A stretch of 64,000 bases of DNA from an uncultured Gammaproteobacteria bacterium. GTDB lineage: Bacteria > Cyanobacteriota > Vampirovibrionia > JBFMGH01. Position 1 is the stretch's first letter, and every line of letters begins with the position of its first letter. The stretch is from positions 40,064 through 104,063 of the forward strand of contig CAZFBA010000008.1 in the NCBI GenBank assembly GCA_964517135.1, in the 5' to 3' direction. The position numbers were made by a program, and so were the translations under genes. This document shows positions 33,167 through 45,663 of the stretch, piece after piece. The notes beneath the pieces are model-generated. The model was not told the origin of the DNA and did no database searches. It saw only the letters and a program-made list of their open reading frames with translations.

Positions 33167-34891
33167 CTATTTCAATGACTCTGCCCATGCCAGCATAAAC
33201 ACCAGCGGGGCATTATAGTCAATAGCATATTCATTGGTGGCATAAGATTTTTTGTTATCAATATAGCTTTTTATTTTCAGTCCAGGTATTGCGACATTAT
33301 CATTTGCTGTATCGTTAGGGCCTCCAACCATAAAGCCAGGTAGTGTTTCTCCTGTTGCCATCATATAGCGATGATGTATATTTTGAGGTGGGTTGTCACC
33401 CAGGCCTGTTACAAAAGACTTATTAAGCGGGTTGCACCCAAATACATAGTTGATTGTTTTTAAACCATAATCTTTGTAAATGACTTTGCCTGTTAGTTTA
33501 TAGGCATATGCTAGTGTGATACCTTCGCTTAAAATCGTAGCGTTTGAAGCCCACCTGAATTTATCCATGGGTATAAAATAAGGGTTAGAGCTCATTTGGG
33601 CAACAATATTGCTGGCATTTTTTATTATTAGTTGTTTCATTGATTCTTTAAGCTGTAAATCTTTACAGTCGCTGGTTGCTATTTCAATAATGCCCATAAT
33701 AGCCGTGTTTTTCCAGGAAAAATGATCATAATCGACCCGGTCAACATTATTTTTAAAGTAATTGAGATAGGCAGGATCTTTTGTGGCCAGATATAATTCG
33801 GCTGAAGCCCAGACAAGTTCGTCCTGATCGCTGTAGGCAAAGCGTTCAGTGTCATAGTTAGGATCAGGATATCCACCGGAACCGCTGTTATCAGAAGACT
33901 GATAATCAGTATTGTTTGGGAATGTTATCATGTGATTCCAGGCTTTTATGGCTGCATTTAGATATTTGTCAGAGCTTTCAGTATTGTAGTTTCTGAATAT
34001 TCTTGATGCTTTTGCCATGGTGGCAGCGAATTTACCTGTTTCCTGGCTAGATATGCCATATATATACCGTTTTTGAGTGTCATCCTGTGCGAGTGTGGTA
34101 TCAGAAGGCCAGTTTTCTCCTGAACATTTTCTGTATACTGCGCCGTCTTCCCTTTGCAATTTTAGCATCCAGTCAAGTGCATAGCGGGTTTCTTCCAGTA
34201 TATCAGGCAAGTCAGAGTCATTATCCTTATAATACATATGTATTTGTTTTGTCTCAGTATTTATTTCGCTGGTTGCCATTAGCAGTGCAGCTGCTATTGT
34301 AGTAGAAGCTATATATTTCCCGTAGTCACCAGCATCATGCCAGCCACCCGTAGCATCTATCTTTGTTTCAGCTGTATTATAGCTGTCTGTTCTTTTTATG
34401 TAACCGTCATTTCTGTGGCATGGTGGATGTAGTAAAGTGTTATTTTTGTATTTGACTTCTCTTCCACAATTCTGAAGGTAAAAAGTTGATGTAGTAAGCT
34501 TTAGTGCTGTATTATAGATCCTGTATTCTATTCTGAAATCAAAGGATCTGTTGTTTTTATACTTTATAAAATAGTCACCAGGTGTCTTAAGGCTATCAAA
34601 TGTAATTTTACTTACTTTATTACCTGTGAATTTGTCAATTATTGGTTGATGAATTTCAGCATTCATAATGACTTTATTGGTTTTAGATTCTATTATCTCT
34701 GCAATGCCGGCATTACCAGGATTCTCAATCAGAGCATATTTTTCAGTTGAAGGATAATACCCGATCTGGTTTACGTATATCTCCTGTGCTATTGTGTTAT
34801 TTAATACGCATGAAACCCATAAGCCGGCTGTTAAGAAGGCAGTTATGAATATTATGAAGTTCTTTGAGCGTTTCTGTAACATATTGGTCAA
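33167..34891 (-). CDS. Glycoside hydrolase family 9 endoglucanase with N-terminal Ig-like domain
   Basis: 574 aa with signal peptide. IDATGGWHDAGDYGKY GH9 signature, N-terminal Ig-like domain (YVNQIGYYPSTEKYALI), C-terminal catalytic-region motifs. Confidence 0.85.
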   Translation of the reverse strand: MTNMLQKRSKNFIIFITAFLTAGLWVSCVLNNTIAQEIYVNQIGYYPSTEKYALIENPGNAGIAEIIESKTNKVIMNAEIHQPIIDKFTGNKVSKITFDSLKTPGDYFIKYKNNRSFDFRIEYRIYNTALKLTTSTFYLQNCGREVKYKNNTLLHPPCHRNDGYIKRTDSYNTAETKIDATGGWHDAGDYGKYIASTTIAAALLMATSEINTETKQIHMYYKDNDSDLPDILEETRYALDWMLKLQREDGAVYRKCSGENWPSDTTLAQDDTQKRYIYGISSQETGKFAATMAKASRIFRNYNTESSDKYLNAAIKAWNHMITFPNNTDYQSSDNSGSGGYPDPNYDTERFAYSDQDELVWASAELYLATKDPAYLNYFKNNVDRVDYDHFSWKNTAIMGIIEIATSDCKDLQLKESMKQLIIKNASNIVAQMSSNPYFIPMDKFRWASNATILSEGITLAYAYKLTGKVIYKDYGLKTINYVFGCNPLNKSFVTGLGDNPPQNIHHRYMMATGETLPGFMVGGPNDTANDNVAIPGLKIKSYIDNKKSYATNEYAIDYNAPLVFMLAWAESLK

Positions 34892-34961
34892 CTCCCTGGT
34901 TCTGGTATTAAAATGTTTTCAGGAAAAGTTTGGTAACGATGATATCGATTTTAATTCAATT

Positions 34962-35342
34962 ATGACGGCAAATAAAGCAAAAAATGTTTTTGAAAGTTTT
35001 AATTATGCCCTTAATGGTATTGAATATGCTTTGAAAACACAGCGCAACCTCAGAATACACTCTGTTATAGCAGTGCTGGTAATCATATTGTCTGGTTTGT
35101 TGTCTTTAAGTAATTATGAATGGGCAATAGTTGTTTTGTGTATTTCTCTGGTATTCTTTGCAGAGCTTTCTAACACGGCTCTGGAGGTTTTAATGGATTC
35201 TTATTATGGAGATAAGCTTTCTGAGCTGGCTAAAAATGCTAAGGATATTGCAGCTGGTGCAGTTTTCTGTTCTGCTATGGGTTCTTCAATAGTGGGTATA
35301 TTAATTTTTGTTCCTAAAATTCTTGGTTTGATAGTACTTTAG
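34962..35342 (+). CDS. dgkA: Diacylglycerol/undecaprenol kinase DgkA family
   Basis: Start placed at internal ATG 34962 (MTANKAKNVFESFNYALNGIEYALKTQRNLRIH...). LNTALEVLMD and AKDIAAGAVF match DgkA. The upstream Met at 34794 would overlap the GH9 gene. Confidence 0.75.
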   Translation: MTANKAKNVFESFNYALNGIEYALKTQRNLRIHSVIAVLVIILSGLLSLSNYEWAIVVLCISLVFFAELSNTALEVLMDSYYGDKLSELAKNAKDIAAGAVFCSAMGSSIVGILIFVPKILGLIVL

Positions 35343-35356
35343 ATGGTTTAGATTTT

Positions 35357-36484
35357 ATGAGTTTAGTTATTGGTTTACTGGGTAATAAAAATAATTCTGA
35401 TACTTCTCTGAAATGGCAGGGTATAGAAGATGGATTGGCTGTTCTGGGCCATAAGTGTTATTATCTCGATGCATTTGAAACGACAGAAGAGATCAATAAT
35501 GCACGTATAAACATGCTTTTTACTATTAATAAACAGGGTATGGATAAGTGGAAACACCTTTTAGAATTACCTATCCCTTTTGTTATGTGGTCAACAGGGT
35601 TTTCAGTTGACTGTATTGAGCTTATTCAGTCTTATAGAAGCAGGATAAATTTTGTTGTTCTCTCAGATTCAGGTGATTTTCTGAATTATATTCGTTATCG
35701 GTTTCCTGAAATTAAGCAAAGTGTCTTTTATGATGTTTTTGAAACCTTTTATAGTAAGGATAAAGAAGAGAATAAAGTTTATGACGTTTCTTACATAGGA
35801 GATATATCTGATATACGATCCATAAAAAATGAATTGAAACAAAATCTCAGCAATGAAGCATATCAAATTATGCATGATATAGTTACATTGATGCTGAGAA
35901 ATTCTGAAATGACTTTATGGGAAGCTTATCGTTATTATTCTTTAATCTATGGTTATGATAATAGAGATCATGAGCTCTTTATAGATTTATATACCAAGCT
36001 GTCAGGCTATATTACAGATATGAAAAAGATTAACATCCTCTCTAAACTAAAAGGGCAGAGGGTTCATATCTGGGGTGATCCTCTCTGGAAGAAGTATCTG
36101 CCATCCGAGCTGAAATATATGGGTGATATTTCTTCTGATCAGAAAGATGAGATTATTAGAAAGTCTAAAATAGTTCTAAACATCGATGATAGTGAATATG
36201 TACATTCTTTAAATCCTTATGTTTTAAAGATTATGTCTAATAAGACTCTACCTCTTACGACTTATAACATACACATGCAGAGAGAATTTCCTCAAAAAGA
36301 TTATGATATTTACTATAGCCTGATGAATAATGATCATTTAAAGTTAAAAATGAATGATTATCTTGATAATCCGGAAAAAATTCTAACTATGACTGAAGAA
36401 ATCTATGATCATGTTAGCCTGAAGTTTACCTGGCAGGAGAGAATGAAAAAGTTTGAGACAATGTTTGTTGCGGGGTCTAAATGA
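35357..36484 (+). CDS. CgeB-like (Glyco_trans_1_2-type) putative glycosyltransferase, paralog 1
   Basis: 375 aa; C-terminal region (RKSKIVLNIDD...HVSLKFTWQERMKKF) resembles CgeB-family GT C-terminal domains. Clear paralogy with the next gene (GDPLWKKY vs GSPLWKEH; RKSKIVLN vs RKSKIVLH). ATGA overlap with next gene. Confidence 0.5.
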   Translation: MSLVIGLLGNKNNSDTSLKWQGIEDGLAVLGHKCYYLDAFETTEEINNARINMLFTINKQGMDKWKHLLELPIPFVMWSTGFSVDCIELIQSYRSRINFVVLSDSGDFLNYIRYRFPEIKQSVFYDVFETFYSKDKEENKVYDVSYIGDISDIRSIKNELKQNLSNEAYQIMHDIVTLMLRNSEMTLWEAYRYYSLIYGYDNRDHELFIDLYTKLSGYITDMKKINILSKLKGQRVHIWGDPLWKKYLPSELKYMGDISSDQKDEIIRKSKIVLNIDDSEYVHSLNPYVLKIMSNKTLPLTTYNIHMQREFPQKDYDIYYSLMNNDHLKLKMNDYLDNPEKILTMTEEIYDHVSLKFTWQERMKKFETMFVAGSK

Positions 36485-37602
36485 AAGAATTATCAATAGG
36501 TGTATATGGCTCAGACAGCTATCAGGGTGGCGTATACAATATGCTGGCAAGCTTTGGTGTAGGCTTTTATAATGCTTTGAAGAAGACTGATATTACTGTC
36601 AAATATATGAAAGACTATTTTGAATCAGGAGAAATGCCTAATCTAACAGTGGCGTTCAATGTTTCAGGAGTTGAAAGCTGGCACAATACCCTGGATAAAG
36701 GTGTCCCACATATGATGTGGTCTGTTGATTCTCCTTTCTGGCATATGCCTACTATACAGAAGTTTTACAACTACAAACACTTTATTTTTACCGGTGTGTC
36801 TCCGGTTGATAAAGAGCCAGCAGAGTTTTTCTTTCCGGGGCTTGAATATTTGTATATACCTCATGCTTCTGACCCTGAGCAGTGGTATCCTGATGAAACT
36901 GAAAAAGAGTATGACCTTGTTTTTATGTCATCTTTACGTGATTTTAAAGAAGACATAGATGAATTAAAAACCTCTTTGCCTCCTTCTATGTTTGATATGT
37001 TTATGGATATGTATTATTACGCCATGAGAAACCCTGAATCTTCTTTCTGGGAAATATATAGTTTATATTCTGATCTCTATGGCTATAATTTGCACGAGTT
37101 ATCACTTTTCTATGTTTTCTTTATGAAGATTTGTTATGCTGTTACCTATCAAAGACGTATTGATATGGTTAAAAAGCTTAATAATTACAACCTTAAAATA
37201 TGGGGATCTCCTTTATGGAAGGAGCATATAGAAGGAAAAGTTGAGTATATGGGTACTGCTGACTTCTTTGATGCAAATGATATAGTTCGTAAGTCCAAAA
37301 TCGTTCTTCATATACAGCCAATGCAAATTCTTTATGGACTACATGAAAGAGTTCTAAATGCAATGAATTCTGAAGCGTATGTTATATCTGATAACAATGC
37401 ACAAATGGAAGTTACTTTCCCTGATATGATTAGTTATTTTAATAGTTATAGTTTTGAAAATCTTGAAGAGTCTATTGAATACTGTTTAAAAAATGAAGAA
37501 GTGCGTCAGGCAAAGGCAGAAACCGCACGGCAGGCAATCCTGGCCCAGCATACCTGGGATGCCAGAGCTAGCAGTTTTCTAACCCTTCTCAAAGGGAACT
37601 AA
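36481..37602 (+). CDS. CgeB-like (Glyco_trans_1_2-type) putative glycosyltransferase, paralog 2
   Basis: 373 aa; C-terminal RKSKIVLHIQP...AILAQHTWDARASSFLTLL resembles the CgeB-like domain ending (HTW..R). Paralog of the preceding gene. Confidence 0.5.
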   Translation: MKELSIGVYGSDSYQGGVYNMLASFGVGFYNALKKTDITVKYMKDYFESGEMPNLTVAFNVSGVESWHNTLDKGVPHMMWSVDSPFWHMPTIQKFYNYKHFIFTGVSPVDKEPAEFFFPGLEYLYIPHASDPEQWYPDETEKEYDLVFMSSLRDFKEDIDELKTSLPPSMFDMFMDMYYYAMRNPESSFWEIYSLYSDLYGYNLHELSLFYVFFMKICYAVTYQRRIDMVKKLNNYNLKIWGSPLWKEHIEGKVEYMGTADFFDANDIVRKSKIVLHIQPMQILYGLHERVLNAMNSEAYVISDNNAQMEVTFPDMISYFNSYSFENLEESIEYCLKNEEVRQAKAETARQAILAQHTWDARASSFLTLLKGN

Positions 37603-42772: not shown

Positions 42773-42999
42773 TGTGCTGATACATGGATTATTGTAACGC
42801 TTTTTGTCTTTGTATTACTCTTATATTCGCTCTTTTAGTTTTTTATTTCTGGTTATGAATAGCTATTTTTGATGAATTTTGGTTTAAACTTATAAAAAGA
42901 AAGAGCATAAGTGGTTTTTGACTGAAATCCTTTATAAGAATGCATTTTGATGCTTTTGATATAATAAACCAAGTATTATTAACCATAGAGGGGAATTAT

Positions 43000-43668
43000 A
43001 TGTCAACACAATTATCCGAAAAACTAGAGGCTGAATTTGTATCACTTGTGAAGCAAAGCTGGAAGACCCACCAGATCTATTTTTGGAATAACAGCGTAGA
43101 TGAAATTCTTATTGGTGCAGTTATTAACGCCAGTCTTGAAAAAGGCTATCTCCTGATAGATATTGCTTCAGAACGCCCATATCCTTATTCTGCTGCTACA
43201 ACATCCACAACAGGAGCATCTACTACAGGGGCGCCACCAACAGGCCCGATCTCTGCTATCCCTATTAATGCTCACTTTTTAAGATTTGAAAGTCCAAAAG
43301 ATAACAGTAGATTAATTTATCAGCTTGAAAGGATTACTACTGACCTTGCTGAAACGAAAGTTCTTGGTCAGCTTGCCAGAGTTACAATTGGATACGGAGA
43401 AAAGGCCAGTAACTTTAGTCAAACACTTGATATACTAAAGCAAGAGCTAAAATCAACTTTCGTAGATACAAGTGAACCCGGCATTATTACTTTCGATGCC
43501 AACATGAGTTCAGGCTATGTATATGCTCAGGTAACAATTATTATTAATATCGCCGACTATAACCTTGAGGATAAGATTAGCCATATCGACTACGATAAGC
43601 TGAATTACCACATTGAAGCGGTCGTTCACTCTCTAAAAAAATATCTAAAAGGCAGAAACATAATATAA
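43000..43668 (+). CDS. Hypothetical protein (two domains joined by a Thr/Gly/Pro-rich linker)
   Basis: ATG at 43000 preceded by AGAGGGG about 7 nt upstream (track ORF begins 42940). MSTQLSEKLEAEF...; linker SAATTSTTGASTTGAPPTGP; no family recognised. Confidence 0.55.
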   Translation: MSTQLSEKLEAEFVSLVKQSWKTHQIYFWNNSVDEILIGAVINASLEKGYLLIDIASERPYPYSAATTSTTGASTTGAPPTGPISAIPINAHFLRFESPKDNSRLIYQLERITTDLAETKVLGQLARVTIGYGEKASNFSQTLDILKQELKSTFVDTSEPGIITFDANMSSGYVYAQVTIIINIADYNLEDKISHIDYDKLNYHIEAVVHSLKKYLKGRNII

Positions 43669-43680
43669 AGGAGATTATAA

Positions 43681-44223
43681 ATGGGATTTTTTCAACTGGT
43701 ACAGGAATTTGCACACAAAAGGGAAATGCGTGAAAGCAAAGATGAAATACTCTTTGGTGAACTTATTAGATTAATGGTCAGAAATTACGGTCCACTTGTG
43801 GAACTCGAAACTTCTTCATACAGTGATCACAAACAGGCACGTTTTAGACTTCTTAATCATCCCCTGTTACATTCTGTTACCATTAAAGTAAATCGCTGGA
43901 CTGGCACAGGGGCTGTTTCAGAGGCGTTATTTGGAAGCATAGGCTCAGTCACCATAGTAGGAGAAGTTAAAAACTATGTTGCAGATCCTGATGATGTCTT
44001 AAATATGTGGAAAACAGACTTTAGTAATATTGGCAAAATACCTCTTCTAGGAGGCATAAAGGTTAATCACCAGATGAACTCTATTCTTGCAACCAAAGCA
44101 CGCAAGATAACTATCGGTGACTTCGTTAATAGCCAGCAAGAAGAACGCCAGAAACTCCAGGAAGAAATTAAAAGCGATATTAACGAGCTCTGTGAACAGC
44201 TTAAAAAGTTTAAAAAAGCCTAA
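43681..44223 (+). CDS. Hypothetical protein
   Basis: 180 aa; ATG preceded by AAAGGAG 7 nt upstream, directly after the stop of the preceding gene (operon). Coiled-coil-like C-terminus (QEERQKLQEEIKSDINELCEQLKKFKK). No family recognised. Confidence 0.55.
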   Translation: MGFFQLVQEFAHKREMRESKDEILFGELIRLMVRNYGPLVELETSSYSDHKQARFRLLNHPLLHSVTIKVNRWTGTGAVSEALFGSIGSVTIVGEVKNYVADPDDVLNMWKTDFSNIGKIPLLGGIKVNHQMNSILATKARKITIGDFVNSQQEERQKLQEEIKSDINELCEQLKKFKKA

Positions 44224-44252
44224 AATTGCTAATTATTAGTAATGATTATTGT

Positions 44253-44289
44253 ATGGCGTGGCTTTGCTACGCCATACTTGCTTTTGTAT
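44253..44289 (+). terminator. Putative intrinsic terminator
   Basis: Inverted repeat ATGGCGT-ggctttgct-ACGCCAT (7-bp stem) followed by the moderately T-rich acttgcttttgtat, 30 nt after the stop at 44223. Confidence 0.45.
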
Positions 44290-44752
44290 AATAGTATCAT
44301 TCCTTGCTGCCAATTGTATTGTAAACCAGAGATTACAATATAATTGATAATCAATAATAAGTGTAGTATTGAGATTGGCTGAATCCTGATATGTACTATA
44401 GGTGTAAAAAGTAAACCTAATTGTAACATTTACATTAATATTTATACAACTGTTTTGACTCATACCGGCCCGAATATATTAAAACAATCAGCTATATTCG
44501 CTTAAACATTTTGTTATAAACACTCGCAGAAAATGTTCCATTGTGATATGATGATAGCCACTTTTTTAGTGTTTATACAACAATTAATTTAATAAACCTG
44601 TTGGCTGAATTTATTATCCTGAAAGGTTTTTAGTGATTTTTATCCATATGAAACCAATACATAAATCTTGAAGTATTGTTAAGTTTCCTTTCTTTGCATG
44701 TCAACTTTTTCATAAAATGTGTTTTTAAACATATAGAATAATTAAGTTTTAG

Positions 44753-44784
44753 TTGACACAAAAAGGAGGGTGCATATGACATAA
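44753..44784 (+). promoter_or_regulatory. Leader element: TTGACA hexamer, strong SD (AAGGAGGG) and 2-codon mini-ORF ATG-ACA-TAA upstream of the HEAT-repeat gene
   Basis: Read directly: ttgacacaaaaaggagggtgcatATGacaTAAaagtaaagggcattAAGGAGGacctaaATG. A second SD then serves the real start at 44812. Confidence 0.35.
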
Positions 44785-44811
44785 AAGTAAAGGGCATTAA
44801 GGAGGACCTAA

Positions 44812-45663
44812 ATGGGCATTAATACAAATAAAAAGCAAAAACAAGTAGAAAAAACCTTCGACGAGTTAATATACGAGCTTCAAAACAGTCCATCCGAAAA
44901 AGTTAGATACAATGCAGCCAGAATGTTAGGCGAGTTAGGTGATTCAAGAGCAGTAGAGCCACTCATAGGTGTTTTACAGGAAGATAAAAACGGTTCTGTT
45001 CGTCTTTATGCCGCCAGAGCTTTAGGTGAATTAGGTGATATACAGGCCACTGAACCGCTGATTAACTCTTTAAAAGAAGATAGAAACGTTGATGTTCGTG
45101 TTAGAGCCGCCAGAGCGCTTGGTAAATTAGGTGGCAAAACGGTTGTAGCACCGTTAGTAGAAGCTTTAAGTGACAATAATAGTCAGGTTTGTTTAACAGC
45201 TACTGATGCATTAATAGAAATTGGCGAAATAGCTGTGGAAGCTCTTGTTGAATCTCTCTATCATGAAAAAGTTAATGTTCGCTGTGATGCAACCAGAGCA
45301 CTGGGTGAATTAGGTAACATAAAAGCTGTTGAGCCTATTATAGGAATGCTGGAAGATGAATGGGTTAATGTTAGAATCTATGCTGTTAACTCTCTTGGCA
45401 AACTGGGCGATACAAAAGCTGTTCCGGCTTTAGTAAAAGTTTTACAGGATGAATCTGAAAATGAACTCGTTAGAGCTGGCGCCGCTGCTGCACTTGGTGC
45501 ACTCAGAGATGTTAGAGCATTACTCCCTCTGAGAGAACTTATCATGGCTGCTGAAGAGCTTGGAGAACTTGAAGATACAGCTCTGAAAGCTTTCAAACAG
45601 ATTATGGCTGCCAACTGGAAAAATGTTCCTGGCGCTACAAATAAAAAAGCCATAAATAAATAG
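44812..45663 (+). CDS. HEAT-repeat protein (PBS-lyase HEAT-like repeats)
   Basis: 283 aa; tandem ~31-aa repeats of the form VR..AARALGELGD..AVEPLI..L.D (at least six), typical of PBS-lyase-type HEAT repeats. Confidence 0.85.
   Translation: MGINTNKKQKQVEKTFDELIYELQNSPSEKVRYNAARMLGELGDSRAVEPLIGVLQEDKNGSVRLYAARALGELGDIQATEPLINSLKEDRNVDVRVRAARALGKLGGKTVVAPLVEALSDNNSQVCLTATDALIEIGEIAVEALVESLYHEKVNVRCDATRALGELGNIKAVEPIIGMLEDEWVNVRIYAVNSLGKLGDTKAVPALVKVLQDESENELVRAGAAAALGALRDVRALLPLRELIMAAEELGELEDTALKAFKQIMAANWKNVPGATNKKAINK

What the first reader, a model, noticed from the sequence alone, without database searches (positions are those of the whole stretch)
35357..37602. Tandem, translationally coupled CgeB-like paralogs downstream of GH9 and dgkA
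The two ~375-aa proteins share blocks (RKSKIVLN/RKSKIVLH, GDPLWKKY/GSPLWKEH, LW/FWEAY..YS.LYGY) and overlap by ATGA, indicating a duplicated and co-translated pair. The C-termini resemble CgeB-type glycosyltransferase domains. Neighbours are a GH9 endoglucanase, DgkA and an HtrA protease, suggesting an envelope-glycan module of unknown product.
Basis: partly seen in the sequence, partly recalled or inferred. Interest (0 to 1): 0.45.

Follow-up and report, generated by a model that had tools for sequence, protein, structure and literature searches.

The report
Glycosyltransferase gene plus degenerate paralog
Two adjacent, overlapping genes in an uncultured non-photosynthetic cyanobacterial relative encode sugar-transferase-fold proteins; the downstream one looks like a working enzyme, the upstream one has lost the family's conserved pocket residues, and the pair is not demonstrably part of a cell-envelope glycan module.

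Summary

The pair is asymmetric.
- B keeps a signature (Y19, D83, H128, H288-E289-R290) that 81 of 115 family representatives keep at 5 or more of its 6 positions.
- All six A orthologs lack it, and their replacements are not conserved.
- A evolves faster than B (36% versus 51% mean identity).
- A is nevertheless kept intact, directly upstream of B, in at least six lineages. A distant A-type relative sits upstream of a distant B in a seventh (L022).

Many B orthologs are singletons in unrelated contexts. In relatives, the GH9 gene can be absent with the pair present. dgkA belongs to the pgpH-ybeY-dgkA block. The "envelope-glycan module" reading is therefore not supported.

Best reading: B is a cytoplasmic sugar-nucleotide glycosyltransferase of unknown acceptor. 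A is a retained, probably non-catalytic partner, functionally like GtfB with GtfA. This is inferred, not shown.

It is a new member of a known kind, of modest interest.

The parts
34883..34961 (.). 79-nt divergent intergenic region between the GH9 start (minus strand) and the dgkA start. It is the presumed promoter region for dgkA-A-B.
   Evidence: Gene calls on the identical contig L001, mapped to the window. A sigma-70-like match lies at 34885-34914 on the plus strand; this is a consensus match only.
34962..35342 (+). dgkA (prokaryotic diacylglycerol/undecaprenol kinase family), first gene of the apparent dgkA-A-B unit. It ends 14 nt upstream of A.
   Evidence: PF01219 at 110.9 bits. Called as a 126-aa gene on L001. 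dgkA sits directly upstream of A-B, or of B alone, in L004, L006, L019, L020 and L021.
35357..36484 (+). Gene A: a 375-aa GT-B-fold paralog that lacks the family signature residues. It is the presumed non-catalytic or re-purposed partner.
36481..36484 (+). ATGA: the start codon of B overlaps the stop codon of A. This is a translational-coupling arrangement.
   Evidence: Read directly from the sequence. Relatives show TAAATG (0-nt spacer) and spacers of 3, 7 and 13 nt.
36481..37602 (+). Gene B: a 373-aa GT-B glycosyltransferase of the CgeB-like (PF13524) kind that retains the full family signature. It is the presumed catalytic enzyme.

Best explanation
dgkA, A and B form one transcription unit. 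The ATGA overlap couples translation of B to termination of A, so the two proteins are made together.

B is a cytoplasmic, sugar-nucleotide-dependent (Leloir-type) GT-B glycosyltransferase of the CgeB-like PF13524 kind. Its acceptor is unknown and is probably soluble or proteinaceous. The donor would sit in the C-domain at W246, K273 and H288-E289-R290. N-domain loop residues Y19, D83 and H128 line the inter-domain cleft.

A is an old paralog that keeps the same two-domain fold but has lost these cleft residues without gaining a new conserved set at those positions. It most likely no longer transfers sugar. It would instead act as an accessory subunit of B, for stability, acceptor recruitment or regulation, in the way GtfB serves GtfA.

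Shown here: paralogy, fold, coupling, residue loss, faster evolution, and conserved order. Inferred: catalysis by B, inactivity of A, physical A-B contact, and the donor type.
For: Paralogy and coupling:
- Paralogy and the ATGA overlap are established.
- Both models are confident GT-B folds.

Signature residues:
- 81 of 115 family representatives keep at least 5 of 6 core positions (Y19, D83, H128, H288, E/D289, R290).
- Both copies of the Chlamydia-type tandem pairs examined (L014, L016) keep them.
- All A orthologs score 0-2 of 6, and their replacements vary between orthologs.
- In the model of B these residues sit right after strand N-beta4 (D83), after N-beta6 (H128), at the start of N-alpha1 (Y19) and at the start of the helix after C-beta3 (HER). 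That is where GT-B active sites and the GT4 EX7E motif lie (plus textbook GT-B topology).
- In an AF3 model of CgeB, W196 stacks on uridine, R155 and R238 bind the diphosphate, and E83 is the proposed catalytic residue (PMC13577073). By motif spacing, W246, R290 and D83 of B match W196, R238 and E83.

Evolution of A:
- Mean pairwise identity is 36% among A orthologs and 51% among B orthologs from the same genomes. The N-domain is the most diverged part.
- A is the least conserved gene of the block.
- A is still maintained. Lengths are 373-377 aa, 41 columns are invariant, and its tree is largely congruent with that of B.
- The order 'degenerate gene upstream, canonical gene downstream' recurs in L022. 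The upstream protein there (P0031) scores 163 bits on an A profile against 102 on B profiles.

Cooperation of tandem modules:
- A fused protein with two complete modules (P0046) shows that tandem modules of this family can work in one polypeptide.
Against: - No interaction test could be run; no multimer prediction was available.
- The catalytic role of the signature residues rests on conservation, topology and a published AF3 model, not on experiment.
- Retaining GT-B enzymes need few strictly catalytic side chains, so A could still be active.
- A has some family-specific invariant residues near the cleft (N275-I276 and an Asp at B-position 279). These could mark a new site.
- B works without A in many lineages, including L020, which has DgkA-B-HtrA. 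A is therefore not essential for B.
- Other degenerate family members stand alone, for example P0047 in L024/L025. Degeneracy does not by itself imply a partner.
Confidence: 0.45

Rival explanations
1. Both A and B are active glycosyltransferases that add two successive sugars to the same acceptor. A has been re-tooled for a different donor or acceptor rather than inactivated.
For: - Tandem pairs in which both copies keep the full signature are common in the related Chlamydia-type family (L014, L015, L016, L027, L029).
- A fused protein with two complete modules exists.
- A keeps G242, W246, K273 and the T-W-x-x-R motif, and has its own invariant residues such as N275-I276 and I318-Y319-Y320.
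- The fold is intact.
Against: - The signature positions in A are replaced by different residues in each ortholog (H288 becomes N/S/T/P; E289 becomes P/D/S/V; R290 becomes Y/L/K/S). This looks like relaxed constraint, not a new conserved catalytic set.
- The N-terminal Gly-rich loop and Y19 are deleted.
- A evolves much faster than B.
Confidence: 0.3
2. GH9, DgkA, A, B and HtrA form one envelope-glycan module that makes or remodels an extracellular or periplasmic beta-glucan-like polymer.
For: - GH9, dgkA, A, B and htrA are adjacent here and in L004, L006 and L019.
- GH9 carries an N-terminal hydrophobic leader, suggesting export.
- One singleton B (L012) lies divergent to a Bac_transf and Wza-like gene pair.
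Against: - GH9 is on the opposite strand. It is absent from L021, where the pair is present, and from L020.
- dgkA follows pgpH-ybeY as in the housekeeping block.
- htrA is separated from B by a spacer of more than 100 nt.
- B orthologs elsewhere have unrelated neighbours.
- A and B have no signal peptide or transmembrane segment and are acidic, with pI 4.9-6.4.
- No flippase, polymerase or exporter lies nearby.
Confidence: 0.1
3. A is a decaying, functionless duplicate, or the pair is an assembly artefact.
For: A is the fastest-evolving gene of the block and has lost conserved residues.
Against: - A is an intact ORF of 373-377 aa in six lineages whose B proteins are only 44-57% identical.
- 41 columns are invariant and the fold prediction is confident.
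- A distant A-type relative is still paired in L022.
- A and B share no DNA repeat.
- B's exact sequence was read on 23 contigs, and the places shown carry the pair.
Confidence: 0.03

Closest known systems
CgeB of Bacillus subtilis (spore-crust glycosyltransferase; Pfam PF13524 Glyco_trans_1_2)
   Same: - Both A and B carry the PF13524 C-terminal domain above the curated cut-off.
- The fold is GT-B with an inter-domain pocket.
- By spacing, W246, R290 and D83 of B match W196, R238 and E83, the residues proposed for UDP-sugar binding and catalysis in CgeB (PMC13577073).
   Different: - No DUF3880 N-terminal domain is detected.
- The proteins are about 375 aa against 317 aa for CgeB.
- There is no cgeA partner and no sporulation context.
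- The host is a melainabacteria-like Cyanobacteriota MAG lineage.
- The JGI label 'spore maturation protein CgeB' on relatives is a family-level transfer, not orthology.
GtfA/GtfB two-protein O-GlcNAc transferase of serine-rich-repeat adhesin loci
   Different: - No DUF1975 insertion domain and no accessory-Sec locus are present.
- No serine-rich substrate gene is nearby.
- A-B interaction is untested.
- B also occurs alone in many lineages, whereas the GtfA/GtfB genes are conserved together in every accessory-Sec locus identified to date (PMC6973325).
GT4-type retaining glycosyltransferases acting on soluble acceptors (sucrose-phosphate synthase, BshA, GlgM, MshA, PimA)
   Different: - Sequence identity is only 9-16%.
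- PF00534 is not hit at E<=0.1, and no PDB sequence is hit even with a family profile.
- The EX7E positions are Y/L and N in B; the conserved motif is G-x-H-E-R instead.
- An extra helical segment of about 78 residues (155-232) precedes the C-domain.
Tandem and fused PF13524 pairs in Chlamydiota-type MAGs (L014, L015, L016, L027, L029; fused P0046)
   Same: Two adjacent paralogs of the same fold and family, each 380-410 aa, are closely spaced on the same strand.
   Different: - Both copies, and both halves of the fusion, keep the full G-x-H-E-R, D and Y signature.
- They share only 22-26% identity with B.
- They arose by separate duplications.

Membership tests
GT-B fold glycosyltransferase superfamily | Two Rossmann-like alpha/beta domains with an inter-domain cleft | tested here: met
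Pfam PF13524 Glyco_trans_1_2 (CgeB-like) | A domain score above the gathering cut-off of 25 bits | tested here: met
   A scores 49.9 bits and B 67.4 bits, both at residues 228-367.
   Neither A nor B hits PF12996 at E<=0.1. Only 4 of 47 distant family members have it.
CgeB proper (B. subtilis spore maturation protein) | A cgeAB-type operon with a CgeA substrate and a sporulation context | tested here: not met
   The neighbours are dgkA and htrA, and no cgeA-like gene is present. The lineage is labelled Cyanobacteriota or Gastranaerophilales in related MAGs.
CAZy GT4-like enzymes | A PF00534 match and the EX7E motif in the C-domain | tested here: not met
   Neither window protein hits PF00534 at E<=0.1. 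By inspection, the motif positions hold Y/L and N in B, and variable residues plus K in A.
PF13524 subfamily signature (defined here) | Y19, D83, H128, H288, E/D289 and R290 in B numbering | tested here: met
   B has 6 of 6 positions, and 81 of 115 representatives keep at least 5 of 6. This row concerns B.
PF13524 subfamily signature (defined here) | The same six positions, examined in protein A | tested here: not met
   Window A has 0 of 6. The A orthologs have 0-2 of 6, with non-conserved replacements.
GtfA/GtfB-type two-protein glycosyltransferase | A DUF1975 insertion domain that mediates partner and substrate contact | tested here: not met
   The only Pfam hit at E<=0.1 is PF13524.
GtfA/GtfB-type two-protein glycosyltransferase | A physical complex of an active GT with an inactive GT-fold partner | not testable with these tools
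   No multimer prediction or experiment was available. The only support is indirect: residue loss in A, coupling, and conserved order.
Translationally coupled gene pair | The stop codon of the upstream gene overlaps or abuts the start codon of the downstream gene, and this is conserved | tested here: met
   ATGA here. TAAATG in L004 and L006. Spacers of 3-13 nt in L021, L019 and L022.

The most novel reading that the evidence does not exclude
A and B form an obligate heteromeric glycosyltransferase in which a catalytically dead GT-B paralog (A) recruits the acceptor or gates the active subunit (B). This would be an old, repeatedly lost two-subunit design in non-photosynthetic Cyanobacteriota, and an independent, convergent counterpart of GtfA/GtfB. 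Its placement after dgkA could tie it to a so far unknown cytoplasmic glycoconjugate.
Probability: 0.3. Interest if true: 0.5.

Novelty: new member of a known kind. Interest (0 to 1): 0.3.

Why it matters
If A is a dead-enzyme partner of B, it would be a second, independently evolved case of the GtfA/GtfB design: an active GT-B enzyme paired with a fold-preserving inactive paralog. It would come from a poorly studied, uncultured lineage (melainabacteria-like Cyanobacteriota), and from a Pfam family (PF13524) for which preliminary biochemistry was found here only for CgeB.

Practically, the result warns against annotating both genes as 'glycosyltransferase' or 'CgeB'. It also warns against reading GH9-dgkA-GT-htrA adjacency as a glycan pathway.

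As things stand, this is an ordinary uncharacterised glycosyltransferase locus with an interesting asymmetric duplicate.

Tried and rejected
- **PDB by sequence.** Searches with A, with B and with the B-family profile found nothing usable. Only fold comparison worked.
- **NCBIfam.** No family passed its cut-off.
- **AFDB50 fold search.** The library was not available.
- **Word-indexed search with A.** It found only A itself. The exhaustive representative search was needed to find the four other A clusters.
- **Recent tandem duplication inside the paired clade.** I rejected this. A scores equally on profiles of paired and singleton B proteins. P0031 of the distant L022 pair is A-type.
- **NJ tree.** It places A outside B, probably by long-branch effects. 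I did not take it as evidence of foreign origin.
- **Diacylglycerol-glycolipid synthase linked to DgkA.** I judged this unlikely. Both proteins are acidic, and B is not next to dgkA in more distant lineages.
- **Collection scans.** The genome and metagenome scans returned few close loci, 8 and 10.
- **Literature.** Searches for PF13524, DUF3880 and COG4641 gave only locus catalogues. 'Pseudoglycosyltransferase' in the literature means something else (VldE/ValL).
- **Rfam.** The window had no hits.

Full report
**1. Observation**

The window holds two same-strand ORFs. A is 35357..36484 (375 aa) and B is 36481..37602 (373 aa). The junction reads TCTAAATGAAAG, so B's ATG overlaps A's TGA as ATGA.

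BLASTP of A against B gives 26% identity over 335 residues, E=1e-37.

Pfam reports only PF13524 (Glyco_trans_1_2) for both proteins, at residues 228-367. A scores 49.9 bits and B 67.4 bits against a cut-off of 25.

- PgpH-like 7TM-HD protein and YbeY, on the plus strand.
- GH9 with a CelD_N domain, on the minus strand (33167..34882 as called on the identical contig).
- DgkA (34962..35342).
- A and B.
- An HtrA-type protease.
- Ppx/GppA and a GAF histidine kinase, on the minus strand.

There is no DNA repeat between A and B. B's exact sequence was read on 23 contigs, and the places shown carry the pair. An assembly artefact is excluded.

**2. Fold**

AlphaFold2 gives confident models for B (pLDDT 94.7) and A (pLDDT 92.3).

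- A matches GlgM (20.2) and PimA (20.1).
- Foldseek agrees.

Sequence methods find no solved relative, even with a family profile. NCBIfam has no passing family.

The glycosyltransferase-fold criterion is therefore met. Membership of CgeB proper, or of canonical GT4, is not.

**3. Family and lineage**

B has 24 homologs at 36-58% identity. The source names that exist are 'glycosyltransferase [Cyanobacteriota bacterium]', '[Candidatus Gastranaerophilales bacterium]' and the JGI label 'spore maturation protein CgeB'. By inference, the window comes from a melainabacteria-like, non-photosynthetic member of Cyanobacteriota.

A found only itself in the word-indexed search. An exhaustive HMMER search of 1.84 billion representatives found just four other A-type clusters at 33-38% identity. 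After those, identity drops to about 25%, which is B-like proteins.

**4. Conservation of the arrangement**

| Locus | Arrangement |
|---|---|
| L004, L006/L007, L019 | Identical synteny: NusA-RimP, PgpH-YbeY, GH9 (minus strand), DgkA-A-B, HtrA |
| L021 | PgpH-YbeY-DgkA-A-B-HtrA, without GH9 |
| L020 | DgkA-B-HtrA, without A or GH9 |
| More distant B orthologs | Singletons beside panB/panC, GH38 with a HAD phosphatase, MazG, an amidase and metallophosphatase, or divergent to Bac_transf/Wza |

The A-B junction is always tight: ATGA here, TAAATG in L004 and L006, and 3-13 nt elsewhere.

GH9 is therefore a variable neighbour, not a fixed partner of the pair. dgkA adjacency holds only within one clade. 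No glycan-pathway context travels with B.

**5. Asymmetry**

I aligned 115 family representatives. Six positions are strongly conserved: Y19, D83, H128, H288, E/D289 and R290 (B numbering). Of the 115, 81 keep at least five of the six. Both copies of the Chlamydia-type tandem pairs examined (L014, L016) keep them too.

B has all six. Every A ortholog has 0-2, and the replacements differ between orthologs (H288 becomes N/S/T/P; E289 becomes P/D/S/V; R290 becomes Y/L/K/S). The Gly-rich loop before Y19 is deleted in A.

A does keep G242, W246, K273 and the T-W-x-x-R motif.

In the model of B, the signature residues lie at strand ends and helix starts that face the inter-domain cleft in GT-B enzymes:
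- D83 follows strand N-beta4.
- H128 follows strand N-beta6.
- Y19 sits at the start of helix N-alpha1.
- H-E-R sits at the start of the helix after strand C-beta3, the site of the GT4 EX7E motif (plus established GT-B topology).

A published AF3 model of CgeB assigns W196 to uridine stacking, R155 and R238 to the diphosphate, and E83 to catalysis (PMC13577073). By motif spacing these correspond to W246, R290 and D83 of B. This mapping is my inference, not a tested alignment.

**6. Rates and history**

In the same six genomes, mean pairwise identity is 36% for A and 51% for B. The N-domain diverges most, at 31% against 49%.

Against L004 the block is conserved as follows: DgkA 79%, PgpH 73%, HtrA 69%, GH9 59%, B 58%, YbeY 51% and A 38%.

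A remains an intact ORF of 373-377 aa with 41 invariant columns. Its NJ topology largely matches that of B.

In L022, a degenerate 366-aa protein (P0031) lies 13 nt upstream of a canonical 376-aa protein that is only 36-39% identical to the B clade. P0031 scores 163 bits on an A profile and 102 bits on B profiles.

The A/B duplication is therefore older than the window's clade. The order 'A upstream of B' has been kept in distant lineages, and A has been lost in many others.

Other degenerate members (P0033, P0034, P0040, P0047, P0048) are B-derived. At least one of them, P0047, stands alone.

**7. Mechanism**

Shown:
- The two proteins are paralogs with the same fold.
- They are translationally coupled.
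- They are asymmetric in conserved residues and in evolutionary rate.
- Their gene order is conserved.
- Both are acidic (pI 4.9-6.4) and lack leader peptides.

Inferred:
- B is the working, sugar-nucleotide-dependent enzyme.
- A is a retained, non-catalytic accessory subunit. The closest functional analogue is GtfB with GtfA (PMC6973325). The defining DUF1975 domain and the accessory-Sec context of that system are absent here.

Tandem pairs in which both copies keep the signature, and the fused two-module protein P0046, show that modules of this family cooperate. They also keep alive the rival reading that both A and B are active.

I put about 0.45 on the partner model and 0.3 on two active enzymes.

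**8. Verdict**

The locus is a new member of a known kind, a PF13524 GT-B glycosyltransferase. It carries an asymmetric, anciently duplicated and probably inactive partner. The substrate is unknown, and no literature on this pair was found. Interest is modest.

Noticed in passing
window 33167-34882 (minus strand): A GH9 glycoside hydrolase with a CelD_N Ig-like domain and a hydrophobic N-terminal leader sits on the opposite strand between ybeY and dgkA. It splits the otherwise contiguous pgpH-ybeY-dgkA block. L021 and L020 lack it, so its presence varies between related lineages.
   Followed up: partly
L022:126-2370: A second 'degenerate gene upstream, canonical gene downstream' PF13524 pair occurs in a distant lineage, with a 13-nt spacer and a GH77 gene about 950 nt downstream. 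The upstream protein P0031 is A-type by profile score.
   Followed up: partly
L014:4707-7155; L016:4739-7110; L015, L027, L029: Chlamydiota-type MAGs often carry tandem pairs of 380-410-aa PF13524 proteins. In L014 and L016 they lie near a gene whose product carries GreA/GreB domains at its C-terminus. The two copies share about 35% identity, and both keep the full signature. P0046 (817 aa) is a fusion of two such complete modules.
   Followed up: partly
L024:8001-9086; L025:8001-9086: P0047 is an abundant family member (93 cluster members, contigs up to 351 kb) that has lost the signature. It stands alone after genes for RsgA, a polyprenyl synthase, DUF212 and a histidine kinase. Degenerate copies therefore also persist without an adjacent canonical partner.
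   Followed up: partly
window 36481-37602, B residues 155-232 (A residues about 153-229): A four-helix segment of about 78 residues lies between the N- and C-domains. It carries a motif shared by A and B (RNPE-x-S-[FL]-W-[ED]-x-[YF]). In A it is relatively well conserved and could be an interface or an acceptor site.
   Followed up: no
L011 (CAZLCO010000004.1): This record is titled 'uncultured Gammaproteobacteria bacterium', yet it carries a B ortholog at 46% identity, like the Gastranaerophilales MAGs. The bin label may be wrong.
   Followed up: no
window 42940-45663 versus L004, L006 and L019 at about 14400 onwards: Downstream of the GAF histidine kinase, the window has three small genes (an MJ1278-family gene, a 180-aa gene and a 283-aa gene). 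Syntenic relatives instead have a single giant ORF of 1584-1757 aa at that place. This is a variable region.
   Followed up: no
window 1-64000: No Rfam family reached its gathering score anywhere in the 64-kb window.
   Followed up: no
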